Of a stretch of 48,024 nt of DNA, positions 17,612 through 48,024 are shown one piece after another. The stretch is from an uncultured Bacteroidaceae bacterium (GTDB taxonomy: Bacteria > Bacteroidota > Bacteroidia > Bacteroidales > P3), in the NCBI GenBank assembly GCA_964513825.1, contig CAZEOJ010000002.1:1-48024 (forward strand). Direction: 5' to 3'. The translations under genes were made by a program, and so were the position numbers. The notes under the pieces are model-generated. The model was not told where the DNA came from. It did not search any database and saw only the letters and a program-made list of their open reading frames with translations. Each line of letters begins with the position of its first letter. Position 1 is the first letter of the stretch.

Positions 17612-17619
17612 TAAATTTG
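17612..17619 (+). promoter_or_regulatory. Putative -7 promoter box (TAAATTTG) for the FGE-domain/giant-protein operon
   Basis: TAnnTTTG match inside the only sizeable AT-rich intergenic gap (17508..17681), 63 nt upstream of ATG 17682. Confidence 0.4.
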
Positions 17620-17681
17620 TGGCTTGTATGAGCTTGTGCTCAAATTATATTAAAAAGAAAAACAATAAAATAAGTGAGATT

Positions 17682-19721: not shown

Positions 19722-19746
19722 ATAGTTTCATTTATTTCTGCATACG

Positions 19747-39400: not shown

Positions 39401-42400
39401 GATACGTTCCGCGTGGTGGCGCACCGTCCCACCTGGACCGTCACGCCCGCACAGGTAACCGTGTGCGCGGGCAACCTGTTCCCGTTCCATGCGGGCACGC
39501 CGTTCGACAGCATCCGCTTCGGCGAGGGCATGTGGCAGCCTCGTGGCAACGACAGCTTCACGCTCGGACCCATCTATAAGGACAGCACGGTATCCGTCAC
39601 CATCCTGCGCAAGACCTGCGAGAGCGTGGGCACGTTCAATGTCAAGATTGTGGCACGCGATACGCTCGGCGTCGAACTGACCGAAAACGCCGATGCCTGC
39701 GTGGCCTTGGCTCCCGTCACGGGCACCAATATCGACCTCGGTCTGCACGCGCAGCTGCAATACCGCGTACAGGGCACCGAAAACAGCGCCTTCGCGGGCT
39801 TGGTATACAAGGGTGTCGCCGCTTCGGCGCAGACCATGCCCTACAGCTTCTATATGGTGACCGACGGCGAGGGTGAAACGCATCTGTATGTCTATGTCAA
39901 TGGCGTACAGGCCAATATGACCAGTTTCGGTACGGTGGAGGCCGGCGACAGACTCGCCATCGGCCGCGAAGAGGGCAAGATGAACTTCTACCGCAACGGT
40001 GCCTTGCTCTACAGCACCGCCGAGACCTCGCGCGCCGCCGACTATATGAACGCGCAGGTGGATGTGGACGGCAACACCGCCCTCACCGACATCACCTTGC
40101 TCAACCTGCCCGGCTCGAAAGTATCGGCTTCCGTGAACACGGTCTACAACAACCGCACCTACGCCTGGTATATCAACGGAACCGAGGTGGGCACGGCCGC
40201 CGCGCTCGATGCCGCAGCACATCCCGTGATGAACGGCGACACCGTGGTATTGCGCGTGCGTTCGGCAAGTCCCTGCGACACGCTGGAGAAGGCCGACACC
40301 TTGGTAATCAGCAAGCAGAACGCCTATAAGCCTCTGACGGTGGCCATCGACACGCCCGACGCCCTCTGCCCGGGTGCCGCCCACTACACGTTCACCGCCA
40401 CCGTAACGGCCCCCGCAGGGGTGGCCGCCGCCGACCTGCGCTACAACTGGTACCGCAACGGCAACAAGGTGGTTTCGGGGGCTTCGTACAATACCTACGA
40501 CGCCAATAACCTGCAGGTCGGCGATGTGGTCTTCGCCGAAGCGTACGTGGCGAACAACCTCTGTGTACTCAACCAAAGCAGCTACCCGGCCGTGAGCAAC
40601 CGTGTGGTTCCGCAGTTCGAGCAGCCCGCCGCCAAGACGGCCCGCATCCTGCCCGAACCCGGCCTCACGCTCTGCCGCTTCGACGAAGCCACGTTTACGG
40701 TGGTGATGACCGGCAATGCCTACCTGCCCGCCCGCGTAGACTGGTACCTGAACGGCACCCTCGCGCAAAGCTCGGCGGCCCTGACCTACAGGACCAACGC
40801 GCTTGCCGACGGCGACAAGGTTCATGCCGTGGTTCAACTGAGCGCGGATGAACTCTGCGACGGTCTGCAACTCGTATACACCGACACGGTAAGCCTTACC
40901 GTCAACCCCGTTCCCGTAGTGGAGGCCGGTCCCGACCAAAGCGCGTTCTTCGGCGACACCGTACAGTTGAACGGCTCGGTTCTGAGCGGTCTGAGCGACC
41001 CGATGACCTATCATTGGACGCCGCAGACGCAGCCTGCCGATGCGCTCAGCACGCAGTGCATCGTAGAACACGCGGGCTACCGCTATCTCTACGCCACCAA
41101 CAGCTACGGTTGCACGGGCTACGACTCGCTCTTCATCGATATGGATGAATGCAACTACATCGAGGCCCAGAGCCCGGTTAACGGCAACGAGGTATGCGAG
41201 GGCGACAGCGTACGCTTCACCGTCACCATCGGCGGCATGCGCGCCGGCAACCCGCAGCGCATCTGGCAGATAAGCACCGACAACGGCAGCACGTGGAGCA
41301 ACGTTCCGGCCGCCGACTACAAGGTGGACAACGCGGGTCTGTTGGTACGCCGCGCCGAGGCTTCGATGAACAACGCCCTCTACCGCATGGTATTCGTTCC
41401 CGACGCCACGCTGGATATGGATTGCGACACCCTCTACAGCTTGCCCTACCGCCTCAAGGTGAACGCCGCCACTCGCACCCTGGCCGCCAGCCTGCAGGAG
41501 CCGGGCGTGCTCTGCGACGACGTGGCCACAGTCACCTTTACGCTCAACGGCAGCTTCCAGACCGGCGACCTCTATGCATGGTACCTCAACGGCATACCTG
41601 TAGGGCAGGGCAGTGCCTCGCTCACGCTCGACCGCAACCGCATCGCCGACGGCTATAAGCTCAAAGCCGTGGTGGAGGCCGCCGCACAGGCCTGCGCCGA
41701 TAAACAGGTTGTGGCCGACAGCCTCACCATCAAGATCAATCCCGCGCTCACGCTCGACGCTTGGGCCGACACCATCATCAACAGGAACACGCAGGCCGCG
41801 CTCCATGCCGACGCGCAAGGCGGCACCGCACCCTACGCCTATAGCTGGAAGCAGGCTTCCTACACGCAGGATGCCACCGCTGCCAACACCTATACCACCA
41901 ACCTCACCGCAACCCGCTTGTTCGAGGTGGAAGCCACCGACCAAGCCGGTTGCAAGGCCACCGCTCGCGTAAGGGTGAGTGTGGTAGACACCTGCATCGA
42001 CGGCATCGAGATTGCCGGCGACAACCAGACCAAGACCGTCTTCGACCTCTGTCAAGACTCCAGCATCACCTTCGACGCCTTGGTAAGCGGCGGTATGCCC
42101 GGCGGCTACACGCTCGCGTGGACGGTTTCGCCCGCCCTGCCCGCCGATGACCTCGTTACCTCGGCCAACGGCGCCCGCCTGTGGATGAAACCCTCCGTGG
42201 CCGGCACCTATACCCTCACGGCCACCGTCACCGACACCACGGCCCTCGGCGCGGCCCTCTGCACCGCGGCTCAGCGCACGCACACGGCCACCGTGACGCT
42301 CAACGTGAGCGCCCCGGCCACCTTCGCCGTCAGCGTGGCCGAAGCCGATGCCCTCTGCGAAGCGGAGGTGGAAGAAGGCAAACTGACACTCCAGGCCACC

Positions 42401-45400
42401 GTGACGGGCATCACCGACTACACCTTGGCATGGTTCAGAATCCGCAACAACGTCGAGATAGCCCTCGGCAACGGCTCGGCCACGCTGACCCTCACCGACG
42501 CCGTCGACGAAGACCTCTACTATGCGGTGGTTACCCCGCTGGGCAACTGCATGGATGCCGCCAGCCGTCACAGCGACACCGTAGAGGCCACCATCTATCC
42601 CACGCCCGTGGCCAACCCCAACAAGGCCCGCTACAATCCCGCCCGCGCGTGCAGCAACGACACCGCCTGGATAGAATGCTACCAGACCGTACCCCGCAAG
42701 GGACGCTTCGCGCAGACCCTCGAATACAGCATAGACGGCACCAGCTGGCGCACCGACGGCATCTTCAAGCCGCTGCCCGACCAGAGCGAGTACAGCATCC
42801 ATATCCGCAACCAATACGGCTGCAAGGCCAAGAACAGCCCCATCGTGGTGCCCAAGACCACCATGAAGTCGAACGCATGGCTCCGCGCCGGCCTCAACGA
42901 CACCTGCTACCAGGGCAACAGCGTCACCGTGAAGGGCGACACCGTCATCGACGCCACCCCGCTGTGGAGCACCTCGGGCACGGGCACGTTCAACAACACG
43001 GGCATCCTGCATCCCACCTACACGCCCAGCGCGGCCGACTTCGCCAAGGGCAAGGTGACGCTCTACCTCAAGACCAACAGCAGCAACGAATGTGATTTGG
43101 CCGACAGCATCGAAATCCTCCTGTTGGGTTGCGAGATCTATACCTTTGAGGTGAAAGGCAACACCGACGTATGCTTCGGCGGCACCGGCACCTACCGTGC
43201 CCGCTTTGCGGTCGACGCCGCCGGCGCCTCCGCCATCAGACCCGCCGACCATACCATCATATGGAGCACCCGCGACGCTTCGGGCAACCTGTCCGTGCTC
43301 AAGACCGATAACGACACCGCCTCCACCTGGAGCCTCACGGTGGCCGACAGCGGCTGGTATTATGTGACGGGCACCACGGCTACGGGCTGCATGTTCAAGG
43401 ATTCGCTGCACATCACCCTGGCCACCGAACCCGACATCGCCATCCTCCACGGTACGCCCTGTCCCACCACGCCCATCACGTTCCGTCTGGATACGGCCCT
43501 GCTCTTCGCCAAGAGCGGCTATGTCAACTACGCCTACAACTGGAGTGCCGTGGCCTATAAGGGCGGCGTTTCCACCACCCTCGGCACCGGCACGGCCGAC
43601 AGCCTCGCCCTGTCCCCGCTGCCCGCCGAAACCGACAGCCTCGTGGTGAGCGTAAGCATCACCACCGCCGAAGGCTGCACCTACAGCCGCACCAAGACCC
43701 TTTCCTACGAGCCGTGGGAAGACCTCTCGGGCTATGTGACCAACGACACCGCGGTTTGTCAGATCAACTCCTATGTTCTGCTGGCCGATATCGAAGCTCT
43801 TGATATCCTCAAGCACTACACCATGCAGTGGAGCAACGCCCGCGGCACGGCCAACCCCTTGGCGTTCCTGGCCAACGATCCCATCCTGGTGGACAGCACC
43901 AACAGCTACTACCTCACCATCACCCGCCCGAGCGACGGATGCCACTACTACGACACCATCCACGTGCGTGTAGACTCCATGCCCAGGATCTATATCGCCG
44001 ACACCATCTTCAAGTGCGCGCAGACGGGTCGTTTCTCGGTTTCGCCCGACAGTGTCGAGTATAACAAAGACGCCTACTATTGGTATCTCGATACTTACGG
44101 ACCCTGCAAGCCCAGCATAGCGAATGTCGACAAATACAGCGTCAACTTTACGCCTTGCGCCTCCATGTACAATGCCGACGGCTGGGCCACCCTGCGCCTG
44201 CGCACCGAAGGTATCAACGCCTGCGCCGGCAAGATTGTCTACGACACCGTCACCCTTGTGTTCCGCGGTCTGATGAAGACGGATGTGAAGAACGTGAGCG
44301 TATGTCTCGACGACAGCGTCGATGCCACCGTAGTGGTGACCGACCTCCATGGTGCCAATGTGGACAGCTTCGCCTATATCCTTATGCGTCCCGACAGCGT
44401 GCTGCGCAATGCCGCCGGCGACACCCTCCTCTACCGTCGTCCCGACACCCTCGGCACCTTTGTCTACAAAGACACGCTCAGGGTATGGAACGCCGACCGT
44501 TGCTACATCGAAAAACCGTATACCGTAACCTTTACGGCCACCGCCCGTATCCTGGAAGACACCATCGTCATCTGCACCGGCGACACGGCCACCCTTACCG
44601 TGGCCAACGCCACCCGTACCCCCTCGTGGCAGGAGTTGGGCAAGAGCACCACGCTGCACTCGGGCAACAACTATAAGGTGACGCCCACCCAGACCACCAC
44701 CTACGTGGCCTCGCGTTTCGCCAGCTCGGGCGGCTGCCAGAAGTATACCACCGACACGGTTACCGTAGTGGTGAAGGAAGGCTTCTACCTGCGCGCCGTA
44801 CCCGACAGCAACTTCTGCAACCCCGGCGAGATGCTCTGGGCCGTAGACAGCGTGGATGCCGAAGACGTAACCTACACCTGGGTCGACAGCGCCCTGCAGG
44901 TACTCTACGGCGTGGGTGACCCGAGAGCCATTGTCTCCACCGACAGTGCGTTTACCGACAGCGTCACCGACACCGACAAGACCTACTACCTGCACGCCGT
45001 GGCCGGCAACGGATGCGAGAAGAACATCACCGTGCGCGCCACCTACCGCCACATCCACTTTGCCCTGAACTACTACGACACCGTGGTTTACGAAGGCAGC
45101 AATCCTAAGGTGGCCGTAATCGGCTCCATGCCCGGCGGCTACTACCCGTGGTTCGACGCGCAGGACAGCATCTACCTCACCTTGTCCGACAGCCTCTACC
45201 GTCCCAAACTTACCCGCGACACCAACTACTTCTACTTTGTGGGTGAAAGCAAGGAAGAAGGCTGTGCGCTCAAGCTCAGGGTCATCACCATACCCATCCC
45301 CATGTTCGACACGGCGGTATGCGACTACGAGTGCGCCGAAATCCGACTCAGGGGCAGCGAAGGCGCCGACAGCATCACCTACAGGTATGCCGACACGCTG

Positions 45401-48024
45401 ATGTTCGTGACCGAACACAGCACGCCGGTACGCCAGGAATACTCCTACAGCGACACCATGGTAAGGACCACGCAGCACCTGCTCGACACGGTTCTCTACC
45501 ATGCGATATACGAGCCCTATCCCGGCAAGCCCAAGAACGATACGGTGAAGGTGAACCCGTTCTGCGACAGTATCTACGCCGATCCTTTCATCGAGCTGGT
45601 ATACGCCGGTCTCAACGCCCAGGGTGTGGATGTCTACAAGGAAGTGGTGTCCTACAAGCATACCGAACTCAAGTGCCTCGAGGCCGAGCCCGGCATGAAG
45701 ATTATCTGCGATACGTTGTATTCGATAGACTACAATAAGGACAAGAAGACGGGTGTAGAGACAAAAACCCGTTTGGACGAAGGTACTTTGGTCAACTGCC
45801 GTCAGGTGGACAGTGTCTGCAGAGTTACCTACATAAGCGCGTTGAGTGAAGACAAGAAGTTCGACACAGCCAAGGCCGTATTGGATTGCACGCCGCCCGC
45901 ACCTGGTGTGAAGACCATCTGCGATACGATTTACGATTTGGAAAAAGTGAAGAAAGGTTCGGTTTATGTCTACAACCGCACGGGTGCATTCAAGACCGAG
46001 AACTGCAAGACGGTTGCCGAAGACTGCGAGGTAACGTATGCGACAACCACCGACAAGACCAATTTGATAGAGACGGTAACTTACAGTACTGCCTGCACCG
46101 AAGGTGGCGATAAACCTAAAGAGAAGACCATCTGCGACACGATTTATGTATTGGAGAAGGTGAAGAAAGGTTCGGTTTATGTCTACAATCGTACAGGCGT
46201 ATTTACGACCGAAAATTGCAAGAAGGTAGCCGAAAATTGTGAGGTAACATATACAACGACCACCGACAAGACGGCATTGAAAGAAACTGTAGCCTACAGC
46301 ATTAACTGCAAGTCTGAAGGTGGTGATACACCTAAGCCGCCCACTCCGACGGTGAATACGAAACAAATCTGTGACACGGTATATACGTTGGAGAAGGTGA
46401 AGAAAGGGTTGAGTTACGTATACAACCGCACGGGAGCCTTTACGGTATCGAACTGCATCAAGGTAGCCGAGGACTGTGAGGTAACGTATACGACAACCAC
46501 GGACAAGACAGCCTTGGTGGAGACGGTGACCTACAGCACCACCTGCAAGCCTGTGGAAGAGGGTGGCGATACACCGACACCGCCTACGCCTACGGTGAAG
46601 ACCAAACAGATCTGCGATACGGTATATACGTTGGAGAAGGTGAAGAAAGGGTTGAGTTACGTATACAACCGCACGGGAGCCTTTACGGTATCGAACTGCA
46701 TCAAGGTAGCCGAGGACTGTGAGGTAACGTATACGACAACCACGGACAAGACAGCCTTGGTGGAGACGGTGACCTACAGCACCACCTGCAAGCCTGTGGA
46801 AGAGGGTGGCGATACACCGACACCGCCTACGCCTACGGTGAAGACCAAACAGATCTGCGATACGGTATATACGTTGGAGAAGGTGAAGAAAGGGTTGAGT
46901 TACGTATACAACCGCACGGGAGCCTTTACGGTATCGAACTGCATCAAGGTAGCCGAGGACTGTGAGGTAACGTATACGACGACCACGGACAAGACGGCCT
47001 TGAAAGAGACGGTGGCTGCGGTACACAGTTGCGAGCCCGTGAAAGAGGGCGGAGAAACCCCAAAACCCGACGACCCCAAACCCAATCCCACGCCTACGGT
47101 AAAGACCAAACAAATCTGTGATACGGTATATACGTTGGAGAAGGTGAAGAAAGGGTTGAGTTACGTATACAACCGCACGGGAGCCTTTACGGTATCGAAC
47201 TGCATCAAGGTAGCCGAGGACTGTGAGGTAACGTATACGACGACCACGGACAAGACGGCCTTGAAAGAGACGGTGGCTGCGGTACACAGTTGCGAGCCCG
47301 TGAAAGAGGGCGGAGAAACCCCAAAACCCGACGACCCCAAACCCAATCCCACGCCTACGGTAAAGACCAAACAAGTCTGTGATACGGTATATGCGTTGGA
47401 GAAGGTGAAGAAAGGATTGAGTTACGTATATAACCGCACGGGCGAGTTCACGGTAGAGAACTGTGTGAATGTGGCCGAAGACTGCGAGGTGACGTATACG
47501 ACGACCACGGACAAGACGGCCCTGAAAGAGACGGTGGCTGCGGTACACAGTTGCGAGGAGGTCAAGACTGGCGACACTCCAGCACCCAAGCCTGACCCGA
47601 CGCCCGACCCCAAACCGGACCCGGAGCCCGAACCTACGCCTACGGTAAAGACCAAACAGGTCTGTGATACGGTATATGCGTTGGAGAAGGTGAAGAAAGG
47701 ATTGAGTTACGTATATAACCGCACGGGCGAGTTCACGGTAGAGAACTGTGTGAATGTGGCCGAAGACTGCGAGGTGACATATACGACGACTACGGACAAG
47801 ACGGCCTTGAAAGAGATGGTGGCTGCGGTACACAGTTGCGAGGAGGTCAAGACAGGCGATACGCCTGCCCCCAAGCCCGACCCAACGCCCGACCCCAAAC
47901 CGGACCCGGAGCCTGACCCCGAACCGACACCTACAGTAAAGACCAAACAGGTCTGTGATACGGTATATACGTTGGAGAAGGTGAAGAAAGGGTTGAGTTA
48001 CGTATACAACCGCACGGGCGAGTT
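21440..48024 (+). CDS. Giant cell-surface repeat protein (SprB/Ig-like-repeat adhesin type), at least 8,861 codons, 3' end beyond the window
   Basis: The + frame with codon starts equal to 2 mod 3 has a TAA at 21425..21427 and then no stop to base 48024. The track lists many + ORFs in the other two frames but none in this one. Spot translations across the whole span give coherent Cys-framed modules, for example VCRGDSATIGATGAETYMWEP, GGNGVYTYKWEYSLDG and WQISADGGTTWAEV. SprB-type repeats are ATCGGEEGSITLSGNKGTAPYTYTFNG (26045..) and SSCGESDGIIGIRAKGDTTLTYSI (26534..). A TTG start at 21440 gives a signal-anchor (LKHFDRIHIRGILLAVALFLAVLAGSAAVV). The first in-frame ATG is at 21593. The start codon is uncertain; the reading frame is not. 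Confidence 0.9.
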   Translation, partial: MKHFDRIHIRGILLAVALFLAVLAGSAAVVRYRSTLSAPAVEPAPVSVSVPMSSVAAPVSAPEIPVAAMPAAASAEPAVADDVEFGPYAGGMASGVETAVSKLSKPSKTYAGGMADGHANMQMVRPIMALYHSGIGDGHATVTLTARPYLGYLGGIGDGHSTATMKPSANLAYLGGFGDGHTTATQPNPVAMAYMGGFGDGNTTATQPEVLARAYLGGFGDGHTHAQMFTGPAVAYLGGFGDGHTHAQMKTGPAVAYLGGFGDGHISVAMKTGPAVAYLGGFGDGHISTAMKARPAVSYLGGFGDGHISMGMKALPSVAYLGGFGDGFHNINNPLPKPWPYMGGIADGFITTLGKGLFVPMYAGGKSDGFAKRAVPCDTNQYLIYAVDSLCPKDTLFLATDSVEYANYYWRGPDGWTSREQNPIRPNFTTKMAGTYTVTIDPGCASSDELPMASKIIKAIYAEPVYAVIDSMAPNMGTEELCYGDSSFFRLTGYGFGDTARFVWKINGLPVLEKINDTTAYFDSLANGFKLSVEVYSSLGCVTDRPYETKPITIKATEKKIVNVTIAADIDQSLTDVTVCEGLPLTFASAYVNAGDNPRFVWLHNEDTVFDGVSKNVIRIDTLADGDSVRLMLHSSIHCVDCRPKESNTLHIHVKNLPEMKVSPEQAINLNENVDIWATGGSEFAQYAWTPCASLTGGICDKDTVNAAPRTTTTYQVTLTEPWGCVVKDTVRVEVYTDTRIIEHAKSVTVCDSTEATFKVRASGVDAHYKWQVDEGDGWVDIDSLPKPNPYWVEQQGSTNCFLHIGKDTAHKTTALSMAMDGFKYRCVVDGRKATTGIRDTLYSNDPLIIGDAILSINPIQYSYPSIVRAPNDTLCEGENATFKLSFVNTPSTKCRIDWKVDTSILASGQDLIFTTPVNRGTQIQALVYTAYRCPAFDPEVSNVWVAAAHKAPVVNAGKDTTIQYNTTGLLHGKLVAVNQDTLASDTMRYSWAPLSGIKGVSDSLEAKTGIIKANVEYVLTGTNIHGCIHRDTVLVTCKGGPLGMDGKIGAGTVVKQYIEICENDSLCISGKPVGGSEMYHHVWTEKPLDSTPANPYFATADTSVLCMKNSPVGTTVYTLTVDDGVDTVYKEITVKVIGLVLSSATLTGDTVLCTPSEYFNIGVKPDETVEGVANYTWYVEDTAAKTFKAVRNFEGKAVYAGRGNTVYNGARLFCAVTVANKCPIVNPIHTDTLVLWPDGTPKFTTITRDTSICPADTVALFATGTRVDSLFWTPQTFVVAGGDAKSETDTVLVAPTSNTTYTVTLVSIEGCTASRNVRVNIHPTTSTKATASDVYACLNGSTRITTTTRGYDLTYIWEKRVGGTGEWKLASEKAPAGKYEGLNSANLTVNYVEKIEEGDQYRLIAVSSRCMPSDTTAPVTLHVLDSVIFSMTLVDTPRCVNDPARIRLYTNVSASALKAFSVELNGGTTGKRTFQTRDTLFTIPNITPGEKVQAFMTPTGLIASCVEVLPIPSEIIDLGVQPAPTLSYTYNNPATCGGEEGSITLSGNKGTAPYTYTFNGVDKGTQTVYSGLSAGMYSAQVADIYSCKSQPVYISLRDPNGPVAPAVTNAGMYCVQDTLPEYLLLDPNTKKAEIRWFTDIRCTNQVHTGDSMPFPSMPGVYTYYLYQIKNNCKSATTRVWVFVGAAPQITSVEAIVPSSCGESDGIIGIRAKGDTTLTYSIEDPANYGNSADFVDLPNGTYILSVLSAAGCVTRDTLEFYADNTPEGPKMISRDTIYCYDAPRKPLEAKPAGGGFIVWYRDYTLTTEMGQGDTCNISSLGVGKNTISATERGGECESKPVRVNVTVLPKINTGVPAINEGCLNTDITVRARKDATVAYTWLKGGVEIGKGDTLVVGVTEETEVYTVHAVKNTNGVVCATDYDFKVRQSTFVPVIDTSVCQGDSIEITVPGGIKYLWPDSSTASTYTVRAGNPNSVQAVLVKVELEGGCTRNYRFNITTDADPSSYVSIDKDFTFYCAGDAKALKAVLSNTSVPVSLQWFKDGEMLAGDTTATLNIQNDTVGLSTYVVRAEARNRCPLPRVTYDTLVLRTYALPKVYAGMDTLVDYNESITLGTDATVSDGVLPYAYTWVKKGETTPINTSSTVLTTASPRLVNTTVFELKVVDSVGCGAKDEVKVTVVGGPFSLDSIRPFDITLDEYAEIICVGDSVSFEALPEGGSGKYEYVWEMPVGTVVSNKDQIRFLPASTTQCKVTVINLTKGTPMASDTLVRYPRVVVHQRAVAGTVTTPDTTMCPDSSFRLTLRSYSGDRIQWQRSVDGTTWSTLVGSTASITISGAAKTNYYRALVGNGVCPDVASPDLKVLVYTSPLDTIAGPADTLCPETEGVALTGNLVTEGGNGVYTYKWEYSLDGEKYLTCPNEADGVNYTWTNRIDTTRYFRRMVYSDGCPFISNVHKVDVYDEIGTSITIKKDFDLYCTADPQQLKVSLSNPDVPVTLQWFRNGVAIDSATEAVLTIHDTVPGTYTYRVEAVAFENHCPPTRYSSDSVTLTAYPSLVVYAGVDDSVQYGERVILGMEAWVKSGTEPYAYSWVKSGTNNALNADKTQLIMQTSRLTYTTVFDLKVKDARGCTAQDDVKVKVLGGPFRLDSIRPFDITLNDYRDTICVGDSVSFTAQPEGGSGVYRYIWEIEGEVVRDKPEIRLLPLQSTFCKVTVINVTEGVAVASDTLVRYPHVIVHQRAVPGYITTPDTTMCPDTSFKLKLHEYSGNRIQWQRSVNGVVWSALNGTADSISVPGTKNTYLYRALVGSGVCPDVATPQLKVSVYTPPVNTVSGPTETLCPEVDSVMLEGNTVTSGGNGTYTYSWEYSTNGGSYKVCPDEPAGEDYLWRNCIDSTRRFRRVVYSDGCPYYSNVYTVKVYTGTRIGRILGENYVCFDSIFSLSVTPTDMDSYQWQRAVHPDSAFENVGDGTFGYTSDPAKRTYFYRVIGQKYGCEPDTTDLFEISPTTPREVTVHISVDTMATCVDNFLTFTVDSTLNAGNAPTFYWYVNGKVLKTPVMKGSETLAYTENGGKVLRISTLRPGDSVWAGLASSIGCVTTRLALSDTIKPTVYLPEAHFVSPLADSVFCRRDTVVLHAEGGVKYSWFYRVDTDSVTRVLDTTNTNKVKVSPTEPTVYAFYGIDRHNCFFSDSLKLSPEPTVTASPDTLICHGSTIALQISVQPNRGNTYQWTETAVHSGTPATLNAREATTATVRVKPEDSLTYYIYSVYTLRGCTYTDTIRVETETTTMPSFVIDYNGYKSGDTVNIVECSKQEHFFVPDSIMSGGDKPTFKWYFNNYVAGKDSLFSDSYAGMLDRSTVYAEMTSSKKCVSERTVKSNSLYVRYTKMPDADVNINSNKGLQVCPDEEVVIFQAHTPSYDSGTYVWFVKRVDSGANARFENVHTGDSLVGNFAAGDQVYCVYFANDTCIKGSPKQSNTLTFQTYPLHRPKVTITQIINEYPAWGDTICEYAPVTFVAAIEDAGKDYAFTWMLDGTIIGTPNTLRIAYDELQANSDTAVNMRNLVARLETKHQCASPGNVVEANDTIYVRPRKHFSAYIEQEGTLDCQSITEELVRFTQVISPHYVYRDGYLATVCNGSYTSDWTNSAAVSQQVISGGNGVVKATAAHASYYQMFGLTSKESMVNYGDIDYAIYLNAGTVQVYEKGTNKGSFGRYVAGDVFEVEVLDNNVRYIKNGTVFYTSTVPATAFVYRGGYALRTHWCPNTPESSHHQDPKLLDIRIVYHKSGVVFNSRIVAPPVNKPTYTWYVNGKPFEFGNGEASLVEHNYAFEDGDVVKLFAKTNDYCVDVPSAMSQEIMVRVPVAKDFLRTVADTVFVCRGDSATIGATGAETYMWEPVRYFSQAQSRDSSIHYLPLETASYRVYGTVNTNCTDFKRVDVIVNELPKPDLGKDINVCYPDTVYLSINKGAVPDTTTDRIYHTAWTFIPDKGEAYNPVSTHENAIDYALLSTGRMVAAMSNVSSGCTVTDTMVINVLDTLGIVVTHTARVLPKYSCPGARDTLSFSYMQNENHPVTLAWYKNGRLLRSSNNANDTVLITNDFVDLDTIYAVVSLPFECGLERAKDTALFPLRRHVKPVASIVVSEDTLCAGDTLGVAVKVVDNPDDTVVYSYRWYINNKAVALTDTPSIRLEDYVSDGTFYYNVFCYVRRALECGFDSVKSADTTILIMPIDTIAVRIDPEVVTGCVYPDGRVFMHADLVVEGRHPVFDKALPAITWYLDDTVVSGLNGTAFDHLVASMDTSAAHTLAVKAVSSYKCVAVNTVFDTADIDFFAVYADAGPDTSIESNKNVTLFHDSVRGDRIQWTTGGDGYFTNATVLHPTYILGTQDRKSDSIILYLHVSSRFGCDTRDSMVIRLTRCAAYALAKRSSDQTICHDDTLFIENKVVAISTAIGSDIPHILYTLTAQPSGRYPLDTLAVVEDSTNAFRWKGVVDTSRKYLLHAEILNTFCHYYDSTRVTVLPLNTISVKLNQPDSTKCTVGALKQAEWTSLNSMHWSVGDGVARHIHCNNYPYAPTSAYGLANSTMRYVATGKELAVLVGFNYENDRNTALDYAFYLTNGSFTIYHEGNPVTYSAVGSYKVGDVFTIVRDHKQVIFYVDQNGTHREVYRMDEPAYGHGLKVNYAAASFRSGDVINPIMYGSTTAAKVFAEVQYGPVSGNVSYVWKVGDKVISTASTFDYEKVNLQSGDTVTVRAMGVNRCDTLYAYDTLIVDGPASPNAPFFLALTRDSAAQCEGEGFTLTAHAYNLENVADGSLTASDLRYNWYLNGTLVKGNTAANTYLYNNLKNGDYAHVEAVLPATACALYREGNPTLSHRLYFSLKENRKLDFDMYLARAKDTAVCPNTAVTFNTKVVNGGGYTIDWYVNGRLAAAGNSYTVTPDSSFDVYAVVHPNSTGYCLDSTGNVSKTIKVRLLEVPRVRAWADTEVVAGSKVMLHGELLRETDKPTSVQWTSTQGTVPGRNSLNPTITANTTTFYFLTAYSAYGCASNTDTVEVDVYECPTLRNYSVPDMVCDGDSALLRVDMAGYKPSSNRYLWQISADGGTTWAEVSGSRYTVTNDRTGSTLKVKPANFDLDASNNVRFRAVISADTSRSNLCNTVYTPKLSLNVDKAHLVPPTIDLLGESDFCTTDCHVYPVYEAKLSEGYEVAWKLNGSGVLEWDGNDHKRSYTVHNGDKVIGVLYGNSVCVNRMNISDTITVRFHRPVKVKAWSDTMIRKNDAAMLHASATEGTGRITYKWTDASFVVDDTKAETQTKSISATRIFTVTATDSLGCIGTGKVLVKVNDTCITNVKLQGPESVCVNETATFQGLITGDRAFGTPQSEWTVNPPLLSNDGSIIVPNPNSARMDIADAQPGTYTVKFTVTDTLEQTKKYCNPDGIVMSDSLIFTINAPDTLSLRIDTLQTRSYCENDKAVIRAQARVNGNLPAAGELLVRWYRIRNNYTTYRGSGDSIIENNLFDGDRFYAVASFADNNCVISNSVYSDTATFRVGEKPEPLQAQQVVAHNHISCVPDDSTYIVINPSASQLAYNLLYTIDSGRTWHTDSVFGNLAEGHYYVGVKADDGCSTDKMVSVYIQNQPDYEFDTLSFRIDTIYACNGKIDLFPSQRADSASGLGYIEWFEDSARTKLLKRSPEYAKSHTYVPERRFLDSVGVYEFWAAESAGLCKGTPSKFVYIVSSCDAELTPKRDTICSDDTVLYSLVIDSISLRNAGGWLFQYSADGKFAPATTENISTGDTLAMTFRDNRAGSYRVAYITPNQDTLYHEASTLWVGTYADPAKYISLAYPKTKAIDMCPGETATFTFYDKDRMFEVFWPGDTAGSTYHSTYEVTLDSTAAVYVRLRSLLGGCESDTTVEVIVRQRTTIALSSYDTTVCYEPDTYLYFPQVLDTGNVFYITYEWAKVGGTDMGSGPFLVQNTRFEVEPDTNYYVATASTGYAECPSRPDTFRVVAHRPTWTVTPAQVTVCAGNLFPFHAGTPFDSIRFGEGMWQPRGNDSFTLGPIYKDSTVSVTILRKTCESVGTFNVKIVARDTLGVELTENADACVALAPVTGTNIDLGLHAQLQYRVQGTENSAFAGLVYKGVAASAQTMPYSFYMVTDGEGETHLYVYVNGVQANMTSFGTVEAGDRLAIGREEGKMNFYRNGALLYSTAETSRAADYMNAQVDVDGNTALTDITLLNLPGSKVSASVNTVYNNRTYAWYINGTEVGTAAALDAAAHPVMNGDTVVLRVRSASPCDTLEKADTLVISKQNAYKPLTVAIDTPDALCPGAAHYTFTATVTAPAGVAAADLRYNWYRNGNKVVSGASYNTYDANNLQVGDVVFAEAYVANNLCVLNQSSYPAVSNRVVPQFEQPAAKTARILPEPGLTLCRFDEATFTVVMTGNAYLPARVDWYLNGTLAQSSAALTYRTNALADGDKVHAVVQLSADELCDGLQLVYTDTVSLTVNPVPVVEAGPDQSAFFGDTVQLNGSVLSGLSDPMTYHWTPQTQPADALSTQCIVEHAGYRYLYATNSYGCTGYDSLFIDMDECNYIEAQSPVNGNEVCEGDSVRFTVTIGGMRAGNPQRIWQISTDNGSTWSNVPAADYKVDNAGLLVRRAEASMNNALYRMVFVPDATLDMDCDTLYSLPYRLKVNAATRTLAASLQEPGVLCDDVATVTFTLNGSFQTGDLYAWYLNGIPVGQGSASLTLDRNRIADGYKLKAVVEAAAQACADKQVVADSLTIKINPALTLDAWADTIINRNTQAALHADAQGGTAPYAYSWKQASYTQDATAANTYTTNLTATRLFEVEATDQAGCKATARVRVSVVDTCIDGIEIAGDNQTKTVFDLCQDSSITFDALVSGGMPGGYTLAWTVSPALPADDLVTSANGARLWMKPSVAGTYTLTATVTDTTALGAALCTAAQRTHTATVTLNVSAPATFAVSVAEADALCEAEVEEGKLTLQATVTGITDYTLAWFRIRNNVEIALGNGSATLTLTDAVDEDLYYAVVTPLGNCMDAASRHSDTVEATIYPTPVANPNKARYNPARACSNDTAWIECYQTVPRKGRFAQTLEYSIDGTSWRTDGIFKPLPDQSEYSIHIRNQYGCKAKNSPIVVPKTTMKSNAWLRAGLNDTCYQGNSVTVKGDTVIDATPLWSTSGTGTFNNTGILHPTYTPSAADFAKGKVTLYLKTNSSNECDLADSIEILLLGCEIYTFEVKGNTDVCFGGTGTYRARFAVDAAGASAIRPADHTIIWSTRDASGNLSVLKTDNDTASTWSLTVADSGWYYVTGTTATGCMFKDSLHITLATEPDIAILHGTPCPTTPITFRLDTALLFAKSGYVNYAYNWSAVAYKGGVSTTLGTGTADSLALSPLPAETDSLVVSVSITTAEGCTYSRTKTLSYEPWEDLSGYVTNDTAVCQINSYVLLADIEALDILKHYTMQWSNARGTANPLAFLANDPILVDSTNSYYLTITRPSDGCHYYDTIHVRVDSMPRIYIADTIFKCAQTGRFSVSPDSVEYNKDAYYWYLDTYGPCKPSIANVDKYSVNFTPCASMYNADGWATLRLRTEGINACAGKIVYDTVTLVFRGLMKTDVKNVSVCLDDSVDATVVVTDLHGANVDSFAYILMRPDSVLRNAAGDTLLYRRPDTLGTFVYKDTLRVWNADRCYIEKPYTVTFTATARILEDTIVICTGDTATLTVANATRTPSWQELGKSTTLHSGNNYKVTPTQTTTYVASRFASSGGCQKYTTDTVTVVVKEGFYLRAVPDSNFCNPGEMLWAVDSVDAEDVTYTWVDSALQVLYGVGDPRAIVSTDSAFTDSVTDTDKTYYLHAVAGNGCEKNITVRATYRHIHFALNYYDTVVYEGSNPKVAVIGSMPGGYYPWFDAQDSIYLTLSDSLYRPKLTRDTNYFYFVGESKEEGCALKLRVITIPIPMFDTAVCDYECAEIRLRGSEGADSITYRYADTLMFVTEHSTPVRQEYSYSDTMVRTTQHLLDTVLYHAIYEPYPGKPKNDTVKVNPFCDSIYADPFIELVYAGLNAQGVDVYKEVVSYKHTELKCLEAEPGMKIICDTLYSIDYNKDKKTGVETKTRLDEGTLVNCRQVDSVCRVTYISALSEDKKFDTAKAVLDCTPPAPGVKTICDTIYDLEKVKKGSVYVYNRTGAFKTENCKTVAEDCEVTYATTTDKTNLIETVTYSTACTEGGDKPKEKTICDTIYVLEKVKKGSVYVYNRTGVFTTENCKKVAENCEVTYTTTTDKTALKETVAYSINCKSEGGDTPKPPTPTVNTKQICDTVYTLEKVKKGLSYVYNRTGAFTVSNCIKVAEDCEVTYTTTTDKTALVETVTYSTTCKPVEEGGDTPTPPTPTVKTKQICDTVYTLEKVKKGLSYVYNRTGAFTVSNCIKVAEDCEVTYTTTTDKTALVETVTYSTTCKPVEEGGDTPTPPTPTVKTKQICDTVYTLEKVKKGLSYVYNRTGAFTVSNCIKVAEDCEVTYTTTTDKTALKETVAAVHSCEPVKEGGETPKPDDPKPNPTPTVKTKQICDTVYTLEKVKKGLSYVYNRTGAFTVSNCIKVAEDCEVTYTTTTDKTALKETVAAVHSCEPVKEGGETPKPDDPKPNPTPTVKTKQVCDTVYALEKVKKGLSYVYNRTGEFTVENCVNVAEDCEVTYTTTTDKTALKETVAAVHSCEEVKTGDTPAPKPDPTPDPKPDPEPEPTPTVKTKQVCDTVYALEKVKKGLSYVYNRTGEFTVENCVNVAEDCEVTYTTTTDKTALKEMVAAVHSCEEVKTGDTPAPKPDPTPDPKPDPEPDPEPTPTVKTKQVCDTVYTLEKVKKGLSYVYNRTGE
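21695..22560 (+). repeat. About 14 tandem copies of a 21-aa (63-nt) Y-L-G-G-F-G-D-G-H repeat in the N-terminal region of the giant protein
   Basis: Direct reading gives core copies such as PAVAYLGGFGDGHTHAQMKTG and PAVAYLGGFGDGHISTAMKAR, with GCCTATTTGGG recurring at 63-nt spacing (e.g. 22142 and 22205). Flanking copies are degenerate (YAGGMADGH, YHSGIGDGH, YMGGIADGF, YAGGKSDGF). Confidence 0.9.
27440..30180 (+). repeat. Tandem duplication of a roughly 1.37-kb (about 457-aa) multi-domain unit inside the giant gene
   Basis: Unit A (about 27440..28810) and unit B (about 28811..30180) are collinear. Examples: KDFTFYCAGDAKALKAVLSNTSVPVSLQWFKDG vs KDFDLYCTADPQQLKVSLSNPDVPVTLQWFRNG; GGPFSLDSIRPFDITLDEY vs GGPFRLDSIRPFDITLNDY; RIQWQRSVDGTTWS vs RIQWQRSVNGVVWS; RYFRRMVYSDGCPF vs RRFRRVVYSDGCPY. 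Boundaries are approximate. Confidence 0.8.
35050..44200 (+). repeat. Two diverged copies of a roughly 4.56-kb (about 1,520-aa) super-repeat inside the giant gene
   Basis: Collinear landmarks have a constant offset. GACCTGCGCTACAACTGGTA occurs at 35868 and 40433 (offset 4565). TGGCAGATAAGC (WQIS.DGG/NGS.W) occurs at 36685 and 41263 (offset 4578). AWSDTMIRKNDAAMLHA pairs with AWADTIINRNTQAALHA, VRWYRIRNN with LAWFRIRNN, and YTIDSGRTWHTDSVF with YSIDGTSWRTDGIF. Outer boundaries are approximate. Confidence 0.75.
45695..48024 (+). repeat. Array of at least 10 tandem four-cysteine modules with Pro/Thr/Asp-rich linkers in the most distal part of the giant gene visible here; it continues beyond the window
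   Basis: The consensus unit is K-[TQ]-I-C-D-T-[VI]-Y-x-L-E-K-V-K-K-G-x-x-Y-V-Y-N-R-T-G-x-F-x-x-x-N-C-x-x-V-A-E-[DN]-C-E-V-T-Y-x-T-T-T-D-K-T-x-L-x-E-x-V-x-x-x-x-x-C plus a linker. First-Cys codons are at 45707, 45920, 46133, 46370, 46613, 46856, 47117, 47378, 47663 and 47954. Spacings are 213, 213, 237, 243, 243, 261, 261, 285 and 291 nt. Adjacent pairs 4/5, 6/7 and 8/9 are nearly identical at the DNA level. Confidence 0.9.

What the first reader, a model, noticed from the sequence alone, without database searches (positions are those of the whole stretch)
45695..48024. Terminal array of four-Cys modules: near-identical adjacent pairs and linkers that lengthen along the array
At least 10 tandem units each carry four conserved Cys residues (ICDT.Y ... 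NC..VAE[DN]CEVTY ... C). They are separated by linkers that grow from about 5 residues to PTPPTPT, then PKPDDPKPNPTPT, then PAPKPDPTPDPKPDPEPDPEPTPT. Unit length increases through 71, 71, 79, 81, 81, 87, 87, 95 and 97 aa.

Units 4/5, 6/7 and 8/9 are almost identical in DNA. The track's two identical 69-aa antisense peptides at 46900 and 47161 independently confirm this. That indicates very recent duplication or gene conversion.

Such perfect repeats of 243-291 nt are substrates for slipped-strand or recombinational copy-number variation. They are also prone to assembly collapse. The array runs off the window, so its true extent is unknown.
Basis: seen in the sequence. Interest (0 to 1): 0.65.

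Follow-up and report, generated by a model that had tools for sequence, protein, structure and literature searches.

The report
Cysteine-module array capping giant adhesin
The end of a giant (over 8,861-residue) surface protein of an uncultured rodent-gut Bacteroidales bacterium is a string of at least ten copies of a previously undescribed small disulfide-stapled module on progressively longer flexible spacers, and phages have repeatedly copied the variable half of this module, which suggests it is a recognition element in bacterium-phage contact.

Summary
There are nine complete units and one cut unit, of 71, 71, 79, 81, 81, 87, 87, 95 and 97 aa. Units 4/5, 6/7 and 8/9 are 99.2, 99.6 and 95.1% identical in DNA.

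The array is the C-terminal end of an 8,861+ aa Ig-repeat protein that runs off the contig. In complete relatives the protein stops just after the last module, with no T9SS sorting domain.

The roughly 60-aa module matches no Pfam, NCBIfam or PDB entry. Only 14 of 1.84 billion representative proteins match it. AlphaFold predicts two beta-hairpins (pLDDT 94). Each hairpin is probably closed by a disulfide, because the cysteines are lost in pairs.

The spacers are predicted to be disordered. They lengthen toward the C-terminus in most related arrays too. Synonymous divergence falls from over 1 for the proximal units to 0.025-0.08 for the distal pairs, so the array appears to grow at its far end.

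The tip of hairpin 1 varies between species but is homogenised within an array. A family of about 140-aa phage proteins carries one module each. In all eight genes examined, the hairpin-1 segment has host-like codon usage inside an AT-rich gene. One is 79% identical in DNA to this window's units.

The parts
21440..48022 (+). Giant ORF of 8,861 aa, open at its 3' end at the contig end. It has an N-terminal hydrophobic signal or anchor, YLGGFGDGH repeats and a long Ig/PKD/SprB-like stalk, and ends in the four-Cys array.
   Evidence: ORF; the window is the whole of contig C2; PF19081 Ig_7 at 2.5e-21 and 8.5e-22; K319L-like PKD domain, PKD-like and SprB-repeat hits.
45308..45559 (+). Conserved pre-array region, starting at the invariant DTAVCD motif.
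   Evidence: Alignment A1 of seven species; orthologues at 35-78% identity in 9 of 18 congeners.
45560..45676 (+). Half-unit (u0): FCDSIY...HTELKC, with two Cys only.
   Evidence: it sits at the same place in G008, G016, G004 and G013.
45704..45916 (+). Unit 1 (71 aa). This is a diverged, position-specific first module (NCRQVDSVCRVTY) with a 10-residue spacer.
   Evidence: The first units of seven species form one clade (support 98/96).
45917..46129 (+). Unit 2 (71 aa), an old canonical module with a 12-residue spacer.
   Evidence: dS is over 1 against units 4-9, with dN/dS 0.14-0.23.
46130..46366 (+). Unit 3 (79 aa), an old canonical module with a 20-residue spacer.
46367..46609 (+). Unit 4 (81 aa) with a 22-residue spacer. 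It was the query for the structure model.
   Evidence: AlphaFold2 gives pLDDT 94.4 and four strands.
46610..46852 (+). Unit 5 (81 aa), 99.2% identical in DNA to unit 4.
   Evidence: dS 0.05; part of the 362-nt exact repeat.
46853..47113 (+). Unit 6 (87 aa) with a 28-residue spacer.
   Evidence: mosaic: 5' part as in u4/u5, 3' part as in u8/u9.
47114..47374 (+). Unit 7 (87 aa), 99.6% identical in DNA to unit 6.
   Evidence: dS 0.025; 255-nt exact repeat.
47375..47659 (+). Unit 8 (95 aa) with a 36-residue spacer. It is the closest host match of the phage P0018 cassette.
   Evidence: In the two-unit model the spacer has pLDDT below 50. The match is 79% nt identity over 155 nt to phage gene L041.
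47660..47950 (+). Unit 9 (97 aa) with a 38-residue spacer. It is 95.1% identical to unit 8, with a 6-nt (Pro-Asp) insertion.
47951..48024 (+). Unit 10, cut after 24 aa by the contig end. It is a chimera of u8/9-type and u4-7-type sites.
46376..46980 (+). Stretch that is exactly periodic at 243 nt (a 362-nt exact repeat). A recombination and assembly-collapse substrate.

Best explanation
**What it is**
- The array is the free C-terminal cap of a giant fibre-like surface protein with an SprB/CHU-type Ig-repeat stalk. The host is an uncultured rodent-gut Bacteroidales genus.
- Each unit is a new, roughly 60-residue module made of two consecutive beta-hairpins. Each hairpin is inferred to be stapled at its open end by a disulfide (Cys1-Cys2 and Cys3-Cys4).
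- From the strand order I infer that the chain enters and leaves each module at the same end, so the hairpins hang off the backbone like bristles.
- The units are joined by disordered Pro/Thr/Asp/Glu-rich spacers.

**How it grows**
- The array grows at its distal end by tandem duplication and unequal crossing-over.
- The proximal units are old and kept by purifying selection. The distal units are young, near-identical pairs.
- The spacers lengthen along the array. Part of this lengthening could come from slippage in their CCN-GAN repeats.

**What it probably does**
- The tip of hairpin 1 is the specificity determinant. It differs between species, is kept uniform within an array, and is the segment that phages repeatedly import from host genes into a virion-region protein.
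- The array therefore most likely works as a multivalent recognition or adhesion brush at the far end of the fibre, and as a point of contact with phages.

**Shown here**
- The array anatomy.
- The position of the array at the protein's C-terminus.
- The narrow taxonomic range of the module.
- The age and spacer gradients.
- The mosaic DNA pattern.
- The host-like cassette in the phage genes.

**Predicted or inferred**
- The hairpin fold and the disordered spacers are AlphaFold predictions.
- The disulfides are inferred from paired Cys loss.
- Surface location, the binding function, and which end of the protein is anchored are inferred.
For: **Position at the C-terminus**
- In G016 and G008 the orthologous gene (about 10,600-10,800 aa) stops one residue after Cys4 of the last module. 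In G018 it stops six residues after.

**The module is new and narrowly distributed**
- No Pfam or NCBIfam family matches it.
- No PDB entry matches by sequence (best E 0.1) or by fold (best E 0.59, TM 0.28). BFVD gives no match either.
- Only 14 of 1.84 billion representative proteins match the unit profile.
- It was found in 12 of 19 genomes of the genus. It was found in none of the 22 genomes from other genera sampled.

**Fold**
- The single-unit model has pLDDT 94.4, with strands at 2-15, 18-34, 40-48 and 53-61.
- In the two-unit model both modules fold the same way (pLDDT 73-87). The spacers at 73-99 and 168-201 have pLDDT below 50.

**Cysteine pairing**
- G010 units 6 and 7 lost Cys1 and Cys2 together but kept Cys3 and Cys4.
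- P0001 unit 3 lost Cys3 and Cys4 together but kept Cys1 and Cys2.

**Purifying selection and age gradient**
- dN/dS of the module cores is 0.1-0.5.
- dS is 0.025-0.08 within the distal pairs, 0.2-0.7 among units 4-9, and over 1 for units 2 and 3.

**Concerted, lineage-specific expansion**
- Canonical units cluster by species, whereas the first units cluster by position.

**Spacer gradient in relatives**
- G010, G018, G008, G004, G016 and P0001 also show it. Across all arrays there are 24 steps up, 9 down and 6 ties.

**Specificity tip**
- Residues 9-24 are 77% identical within arrays and 24% between species. The hairpin base is 67% identical between species.

**Phage link**
- A family of ten roughly 140-aa proteins is encoded next to terminase and portal genes.
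- In all 8 genes examined, GC3 is 0.51-0.77 in the linker-end plus hairpin-1 cassette and 0.03-0.33 elsewhere in the gene. The contigs are 34-37% GC.
- The P0018 cassette is 79% nt identical over 155 nt to units 8 and 9. Its tip matches at 15 of 17 residues.
- Within the phage family the tips are 41% identical and hairpin 2 is 68% identical.

**Surface context**
- The genome encodes the T9SS translocon SprA and 31 ORFs that pass the type-A sorting-domain cut-off (38 at E <= 0.001).
Against: - No experiment or read data supports surface exposure, disulfides, binding or phage contact.
- The protein lacks the C-terminal sorting domain that known T9SS cargo needs. How it crosses the outer membrane, and which end is anchored, are unknown.
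- The tools returned no model coordinates, so Cys-Cys distances were not measured.
- Only one of the ten phage proteins in that family has a clearly matching host tip. The others match at about 50%, which is no better than host-to-host background (median 0.59).
- The phage contigs are short Logan assemblies, and their host is inferred only from the cassette.
- The spacer gradient could be a by-product of duplication plus slippage, with no function.
- The copy number in this window is unreliable because of the 255-362-nt exact repeats.
Confidence: 0.6

Rival explanations
1. **Anchoring or docking array.** The modules bind a cell-surface partner, so the C-terminal end of the giant protein is tethered to the cell or recruits partner proteins. 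A candidate partner is the roughly 1,000-aa protein encoded immediately downstream in relatives. That protein has a T9SS type-A sorting domain and a weak cohesin-like region. This would work like cohesin arrays on PT-linked scaffoldins, or like LysM or SLH repeat anchors. Phages would then copy the module to bind that partner.
For: - A roughly 920-1,030-aa gene with a T9SS type-A sorting domain follows the giant gene in G016, G008, G004, G007 and G018. TIGR04183 scores 1.1e-9.
- It has a weak cohesin match (E 0.13) over profile positions 29-120 of 139.
- By eye it contains two dockerin-like GL(N/D)GNDAT...(NY/NK)V motifs.
- The giant protein has no sorting domain of its own.
- Arrays of small modules on PT linkers are a common anchoring design.
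Against: - The tip that varies most between species would have to co-evolve with a partner that is well conserved between species.
- G010 has a different downstream gene.
- The cohesin match is below threshold, and no dockerin family was detected.
- The partner holds no four-Cys module.
- The N-terminus of the giant protein has its own hydrophobic anchor-like segment.
Confidence: 0.2
2. **Passive, variable-length spacer or antigenic decoy** (a Periscope-type stalk extension). The modules have no ligand. The array only changes the length or antigenic surface of the fibre through gain and loss of repeats. The spacer gradient is a neutral by-product of duplication and slippage.
For: - Near-identical tandem units, mosaic recombination tracts and different copy numbers between species.
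- This fits the class of surface proteins with highly identical repeats that vary by homologous recombination (PMC9704523).
Against: - The old proximal units are kept under purifying selection (dN/dS 0.1-0.2 at dS over 1).
- Variation between species is concentrated in one hairpin tip.
- Phages selectively import that same segment.
- The flexible spacers do not make a rod.
Confidence: 0.12
3. **Assembly artefact.** The paired near-identical units, or the array as a whole, come from mis-assembly of short reads or from mixing of strains in a metagenome bin.
For: - The genome is a 219-contig MAG, and the contig ends inside unit 10.
- Exact repeats of 255-362 nt exceed usual read lengths.
- Ten of the 12 related genomes that hold the module break inside the array.
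Against: - The same architecture recurs in independently assembled genomes from other studies: a first diverged unit, then near-identical neighbours, on lengthening spacers. This includes uninterrupted arrays inside 226-kb and 476-kb contigs (G010 and G016).
- The reading frame is intact through all units.
- The differences between pairs are ordered.
- Only the exact copy number is in doubt.
Confidence: 0.05

Closest known systems
[quoted passage not shown]
   Same: - A giant single-chain protein with a repetitive Ig-like stalk.
- Adjacent repeats up to 99.6% identical in DNA.
- Signs of homologous recombination between repeats.
- Copy number differs between species.
   Different: - The near-identical repeats are not the rod-like stalk. 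They form a terminal string of small modules separated by disordered spacers of up to about 29 residues.
- The spacers follow a length gradient.
- Repeat-number variation between strains has not been shown.
SprB, RemA and CHU-type large T9SS adhesins of Bacteroidota
   Same: - The same phylum and great length.
- Ig_7 (CHU_C-associated), SprB-repeat and PKD-like stalk domains.
- The genome holds SprA and many T9SS cargo proteins.
- GldJ/GldK-like FGE-domain genes lie directly upstream.
   Different: - There is no type-A or type-B C-terminal sorting domain. The complete orthologues end in the four-Cys module.
- The N-terminus carries an anchor-like hydrophobic segment and GDGH repeats.
Cellulosomal scaffoldins and other arrays of binding modules on Pro/Thr linkers
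   Same: Repeated, nearly identical small modules are strung on Pro/Thr-rich flexible linkers, giving multivalency. A neighbouring gene has a weak cohesin-like region.
   Different: The module is about 60 aa, has two disulfides and is not a cohesin. No dockerin partner was identified. A monotone linker-length gradient is not, to my knowledge, a described feature of scaffoldins.
Mucin-type architecture (Cys domains interrupting Pro/Thr/Ser-rich regions)
   Same: Small disulfide-bonded globular domains alternate with Pro/Thr-rich extended segments.
   Different: This is a bacterial protein with an unrelated fold. The spacers lack the Bacteroidota O-glycosylation motif; the only motif copies lie inside the modules.
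Phage virion proteins that carry host-like adhesion domains (for example Ig-like decoration proteins), and cassette-swapping receptor-binding proteins
   Same: A phage protein encoded in the head and packaging region carries a single copy of a host surface-protein module. Its specificity segment differs between phage variants.
   Different: - The variable segment keeps the host's codon usage, so it appears to be copied from the host gene itself rather than diversified in the phage.
- No template repeat or reverse transcriptase was seen on the 15.7-kb contig.

Membership tests
Periscope Proteins | [quoted passage not shown] | tested here: met
   u4/u5 are 99.2% and u6/u7 99.6% identical in DNA. 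The definition is taken from PMC9704523. Surface location is inferred.
Periscope Proteins | Repeats fold individually and form an anisotropic rod in the array | tested here: not met
   The units fold on their own (pLDDT 94). However, they are separated by spacers with pLDDT below 50, 27 and 34 residues long in the two-unit model. That is beads on a string, not a rod.
Periscope Proteins | Repeat number varies between strains | not testable with these tools
Only differences between species were seen, from 4 to at least 10 units.
T9SS cargo (type A TIGR04183 or type B CTD) | Sorting domain at the extreme C-terminus | tested here: not met
   Complete orthologues end ...HCE*...DCE* and ...SCEAIKED* directly after the last module. 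No CTD family was hit in the array. The window's own gene is cut, so this rests on relatives.
SprB/CHU-type large adhesins | Stalk of Ig-like CHU_C-associated, SprB or PKD-type repeats | tested here: met
   PF19081 at 2.5e-21 and 8.5e-22; PF22352 (K319L-like PKD domain), PF16820 and PF13573 hits.
CVNH (cyanovirin-N homology, PF08881) | A domain match that passes threshold on its own; the CVNH fold | tested here: not met
   The summed score is 31.6 bits but no single stretch passes. No CVNH entry appears among the 50 best fold matches listed or the PDB sequence matches.
Cohesin arrays of scaffoldins | Modules are cohesin domains | tested here: not met
   No cohesin hit in the array. The module is about 60 aa with four strands.
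Zinc ribbon or other C4 metal site | Four Cys act together as one site | tested here: not met
   The cysteines are lost in pairs while the other pair is kept (G010 u6/u7; P0001 unit 3). There are no CxxC knuckles; the spacing is 28/7/23.
Diversity-generating retroelement target (for the phage cassette) | A template repeat and a reverse transcriptase near the variable region | tested here: inconclusive
   There is no second copy of the cassette on the 15.7-kb contig L040, and no RT family among its called genes. The contig is only part of the phage genome.
Bacteroidota general O-glycosylation targets | The motif D-(S/T)-(A/I/L/V/M/T) in an exported protein | tested here: inconclusive
   - D-T is invariant after Cys1, and the third residue is V, I, L or T in all 33 units.
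- The giant protein has 210 copies of the motif, against 45 +/- 6 in shuffles. The motif is taken from PMC8550257.
- The phage copies, which are made in the cytoplasm, keep CDTVY as well. The motif may therefore be structural.

The most novel reading that the evidence does not exclude
The module is a self-recognising unit. Arrays on neighbouring cells would zip together through matching hairpin-1 tips, giving species-specific aggregation. The phages would dock onto their host by displaying a copy of the receptor's own hairpin, refreshed by recombination with the many copies in the host gene. The species-specific tips, the homogenisation within arrays and the distal turnover of the array would then be products of an arms race over a homotypic receptor-mimic interaction. 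To my knowledge this mode of phage host recognition has not been described.
Probability: 0.2. Interest if true: 0.88.

Novelty: new variant of a known kind. Interest (0 to 1): 0.66.

Why it matters
- It defines a new small extracellular domain family, with a confidently predicted fold that matches no solved structure. The family is confined to one uncultured gut Bacteroidales genus and its phages.
- It gives a clear natural example of how a repeat array grows: old units at the base, young units at the tip, and spacer length tracking age. This pattern recurs across species.
- The host-coded hairpin cassette inside AT-rich phage genes is a ready-made, testable handle. It can link uncultured phages to hosts, and it can identify a receptor or recognition surface on a 10,000-residue protein that would otherwise be intractable.
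- It raises an open question about export. A giant Bacteroidota surface-type protein ends without a T9SS sorting signal, so how it leaves the cell is unknown.

Tried and rejected
- **Family searches.** Pfam, NCBIfam and PHROGs gave nothing real for the unit. A summed CVNH score had no passing stretch and was treated as spurious.
- **Structure searches.** Foldseek against the PDB and BFVD, and a profile search of PDB sequences, gave no significant match.
- **The missing 3' end in this genome.** No other contig holds the module, the tail or the downstream gene.
- **JGI metagenome contigs.** A protein scan and an exact 35-nt pattern both found nothing.
- **First scan of genome contigs.** A single-protein query found nothing. 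An alignment query then worked.
- **Module in the downstream T9SS partner.** I suspected this by eye (HCDSVW..., VHCREID). A full-sensitivity profile search rejected it.
- **My first impression that every phage tip matches a particular host species.** Quantified, only P0018 matching G000 holds (0.88). P0025 and P0023 matching P0005 is suggestive (0.65-0.71). The rest are at background.
- **A DGR as the source of the phage cassette.** There is no template repeat on L040.
- **The phage as a prophage.** It was not found in 61 genomes of the family (these included 6 of the genus's 19 genomes). It was also not found in GenBank phages or IMG/VR.
- **A zinc site.** Rejected because the cysteines are lost in pairs.

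Full report
**1. The observation**

The region lies in one reading frame, 21440-48022 on the + strand. That frame is 8,861 codons long and has no stop before the end of the window. The window is the whole of contig C2 of a 219-contig, 1.68-Mb metagenome-assembled genome that is 93.7% complete. The gene therefore runs off a contig end.

Units begin with [IV]CDT.Y at 45704, 45917, 46130, 46367, 46610, 46853, 47114, 47375, 47660 and 47951. They measure 71, 71, 79, 81, 81, 87, 87, 95 and 97 aa, and the tenth unit is cut after 24 aa.

Each complete unit has four Cys at spacing 28(30)/7/23. The stretches between Cys4 and the next Cys1 are 10, 12, 20, 22, 22, 28, 28, 36 and 38 residues.

DNA identity is 99.2% for u4/u5, 99.6% for u6/u7 and 95.1% for u8/u9, where a 6-nt insertion adds Pro-Asp. 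All other pairs are 65-90% identical. The two identical antisense 69-aa ORFs are there. Tandem Repeats Finder gives periods of 243, 261 and 285.

A profile built from the unit finds nothing else in the six-frame translation of the genome. A two-Cys half-unit at 45560-45676 precedes the array.

**2. Where the array sits**

The rest of the protein is a stalk of Ig-like repeats. Pfam hits include PF19081 (Ig_7) at 2.5e-21 and 8.5e-22, plus K319L-like PKD domain, PKD-like, Ig_3 and SprB-repeat hits. The N-terminus has a hydrophobic anchor-like segment followed by YLGGFGDGH repeats.

The same module ends open frames of 8,400-13,300 codons in congeners. It was found in 12 of 19 genomes of the genus. 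It was found in none of the 22 genomes sampled from other genera of the family and order. Record titles call these uncultured Bacteroidales MAGs. One isolate name carries an MGBC prefix and another Mgla, which I read as mouse and bank-vole gut sources.

Where the 3' end is assembled, the gene stops directly after the last module...VVHCE* in G016...ASDCE* in G008 and ...YSCEAIKED* in G018. The array is therefore the C-terminal cap of the protein. There is no T9SS sorting domain, although the genome encodes the SprA translocon and 31 ORFs that pass the type-A sorting-domain cut-off.

In five of six relatives, the next gene encodes a roughly 920-1,030-aa protein. It has its own signal peptide, a type-A sorting domain (TIGR04183, 1.1e-9) and a sub-threshold cohesin match. 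That gene and the array's tail are missing from this MAG.

**3. The module**

No Pfam, NCBIfam or PHROG family matches. A profile of 33 units from seven species finds only 14 proteins at E <= 0.001 among 1.84 billion representatives. Most of those examined are fragments of the same giant-protein family.

AlphaFold2 on this alignment gives pLDDT 94.4, with four strands at residues 2-15, 18-34, 40-48 and 53-61. That is two successive hairpins. Foldseek finds no similar structure in the PDB (best E 0.59, TM 0.28) or in BFVD. A profile search of PDB sequences also finds nothing.

The tools gave no coordinates, so I infer the disulfide pairing from natural variants:
- G010 units 6 and 7 have lost Cys1 and Cys2 together and kept Cys3 and Cys4.
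- P0001 unit 3 has lost Cys3 and Cys4 together and kept Cys1 and Cys2.
- The register of hairpin 2 places Cys39 opposite Cys62.

This argues for Cys1-Cys2 and Cys3-Cys4 staples and against a single four-Cys metal site.

From the strand order I infer that the chain enters and leaves each module at the same end, so the hairpins project sideways from the backbone. A two-unit model folds both modules alike (pLDDT 73-87). It leaves the spacers (residues 73-99 and 168-201) below pLDDT 50. The conserved VKTK(Q/T) before Cys1 is part of the first strand.

**4. How the array evolves**

The module cores are under purifying selection, with dN/dS of 0.1-0.5. Synonymous divergence forms a gradient:

| Comparison | dS |
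|---|---|
| u6/u7 | 0.025 |
| u4/u5 | 0.05 |
| u8/u9 | 0.08 |
| u4 or u5 vs u6 or u7 | about 0.2 |
| u6 or u7 vs u8 or u9 | about 0.35 |
| u4 vs u8 | 0.66 |
| u2 or u3 vs all others | over 1 |

The variable sites form a mosaic. Units 4-7 share the first 128 nt. Units 6-9 share a block at about alignment positions 129-180. Unit 10 mixes both types. This is what unequal crossing-over or gene conversion produces.

In a tree of 33 units, the first units of all species form one clade (support 98/96). The canonical units group by species or species pair: G000 with G018 at 100/100, and G016 at 100/98. The base of the array is therefore old and position-specific, while the distal part turns over within lineages.

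Spacer length rises toward the C-terminus in most related arrays too:
- G010: 10, 12, 22, 22, 24, 29
- G018: 13, 13, 20, 21, ..., 33, 33
- G008: 13, 11, 14, 25, ..., 36, 36, 20
- G004: 13, 10, 15, 21

Pooled over all arrays there are 24 steps up, 9 down and 6 ties. Most of the downward steps are the first one. The spacer sequences differ between species (PTPT, PEPE or PVDP types), so the gradient is re-created or maintained rather than simply inherited.

A mechanistic reading needs no selection. Duplication favours the distal units, and longer CCN-GAN tracts slip more. The Pro-Asp insertion between u8 and u9 could be one such slip. A functional reading is that greater reach or less crowding helps toward the free end. 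That cannot be excluded or shown here.

**5. Assembly caveat**

Exact repeats reach 362 nt at offset 243 (46376-46980 is perfectly periodic) and 255 nt at offset 261. In 10 of the 12 genomes that hold the module, the array is cut by a contig end or a run of N. Only G010 and G016 are uninterrupted. The order of unit types is credible because it recurs. The number of u4/5-type and u6/7-type copies is a lower bound.

**6. The specificity segment**

Among canonical units, residues 9-24 (the tip of hairpin 1) are 77% identical within arrays and 24% identical between species. The hairpin base around Cys1 is 67% identical between species.

**7. Phages carry the module**

Two phage-type proteins turned up in the profile search.

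P0013 is a 245-aa member of DUF6712 (phrog_24616). It lies in a cluster with a ClpP-type protease. Its 175-aa relatives lack the roughly 70-aa module, so the module is an insertion.

P0011 and nine relatives (139-146 aa) are encoded directly after the portal gene. Terminase and portal genes were identified on the 15.7-kb contig. Their N- and C-terminal flanks and hairpin 2 are conserved, with hairpin 2 at 68% median identity. The hairpin-1 tips differ, at 41% median identity.

In all eight genes whose DNA I could read, the segment from the linker end through hairpin 1 to the Cys3 motif has GC3 of 0.51-0.77. The rest of the same gene has GC3 of 0.03-0.33, and the contigs are 34-37% GC. The host units have GC3 of 0.67-0.69.

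The P0018 cassette is 79% identical in DNA over 155 nt to this window's units 8 and 9. The match ends inside the conserved GAAGACTGCGAGGTGACGT motif, and the tip agrees at 15 of 17 residues. P0025 and P0023 resemble the host fragment P0005 at 0.65-0.71. The others have no sampled counterpart, with best matches of about 0.5. That is not above the host-to-host background, whose median is 0.59.

No second copy of the cassette lies on the 15.7-kb contig. The phage was not found in 61 genomes of the family (which included 6 of the genus's 19 genomes), in GenBank phages or in IMG/VR.

The simplest reading is that an ancestral phage gene acquired the module from the G000/G018 lineage, because its hairpin 2 is of that type. 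Hairpin 1 has since been replaced repeatedly by recombination with host arrays.

**8. Interpretation**

I commit to the following. The array is a multivalent recognition brush at the C-terminal end of a giant surface fibre. It is built from disulfide-stapled double-hairpin modules, and the hairpin-1 tip sets specificity. It grows and is homogenised at its distal end by recombination, and it is a point of contact with phages (confidence about 0.6).

Rival explanations:
- An anchoring or docking array for the co-encoded T9SS partner (0.2).
- A passive variable-length or antigenic extension (0.12).
- An assembly artefact (0.05).

Which end of the protein is attached, and how it is exported without a sorting domain, remain open.

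**9. Comparison and novelty**

The design resembles Periscope-type adhesins in its near-identical repeats (PMC9704523). It fails their rod criterion. It shares the stalk domains of SprB/CHU-type adhesins but lacks their sorting domain. It resembles scaffoldins and mucins only in alternating modules and Pro/Thr linkers.

The module family, the recurring spacer gradient coupled to unit age, and the host-coded cassette in phage genes are not described in anything I could find. I class it as a new variant of a known kind.

Noticed in passing
window 21440-48022, and the - strand ORF 26669-48022: The giant gene almost completely avoids the three codons whose reverse complements are stops (TTA, CTA, TCA). 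It has 5 in 8,861 codons and none after 26669. Nine neighbouring ORFs use them at 0.67%, which would predict about 48 over that stretch. As a result, a codon-aligned antisense frame stays open for 7,117 codons. TCA is used 0 times for 590 Ser codons.
   Followed up: partly
L027 9487-12540 (G016); also L016, L020, L024 and L023: In five of six relatives the giant gene is followed by a roughly 920-1,030-aa secreted protein. It has a CnaB/SdrD-like domain, two dockerin-like GL(N/D)GNDAT motifs (seen by eye), a sub-threshold cohesin match (E 0.13) and a T9SS type-A sorting domain. It is a possible partner of the fibre. This gene is missing from the window's MAG.
   Followed up: partly
L074 174-605 (+) and 730-1155 (-): One 1.2-kb Logan contig holds two complete copies of the phage module gene, tail to tail on opposite strands, with different hairpin-1 cassettes (P0023 type and P0019 type). 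This is either a real inverted pair of alternative variants or an assembly chimera of two phage strains.
   Followed up: no
L033 10001-10738 (P0013): A second, unrelated phage protein family (DUF6712, phrog_24616) has one member with the four-Cys module inserted into a loop. Its 175-aa relatives lack the insert. This copy has CDKKW in place of CDTVY.
   Followed up: partly
window 21440-48022: The Bacteroidota O-glycosylation motif D-(S/T)-(A/I/L/V/M/T) occurs 210 times in the giant protein, against 45 +/- 6 in shuffled sequences. One invariant copy follows Cys1 of every module.
   Followed up: partly
L017/L026 (G010) units 6-7 and the C-terminal tail: In G010 the last two modules have lost the Cys1-Cys2 pair (IYDT..., ENPRT). 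The ORF then continues for 48 unrelated residues after the last Cys, and a different gene follows. The distal end of the array may be decaying or remodelled in that species.
   Followed up: no
window 17619-21420: Two FGE-sulfatase-domain (GldJ/GldK/PorK-like) genes lie directly upstream of the giant gene. The second ends 19 nt before the giant gene's start. Recent work shows that such track proteins hold outer-membrane partners by disulfide bonds (PMC12635249). This may bear on how the fibre is mounted.
   Followed up: no
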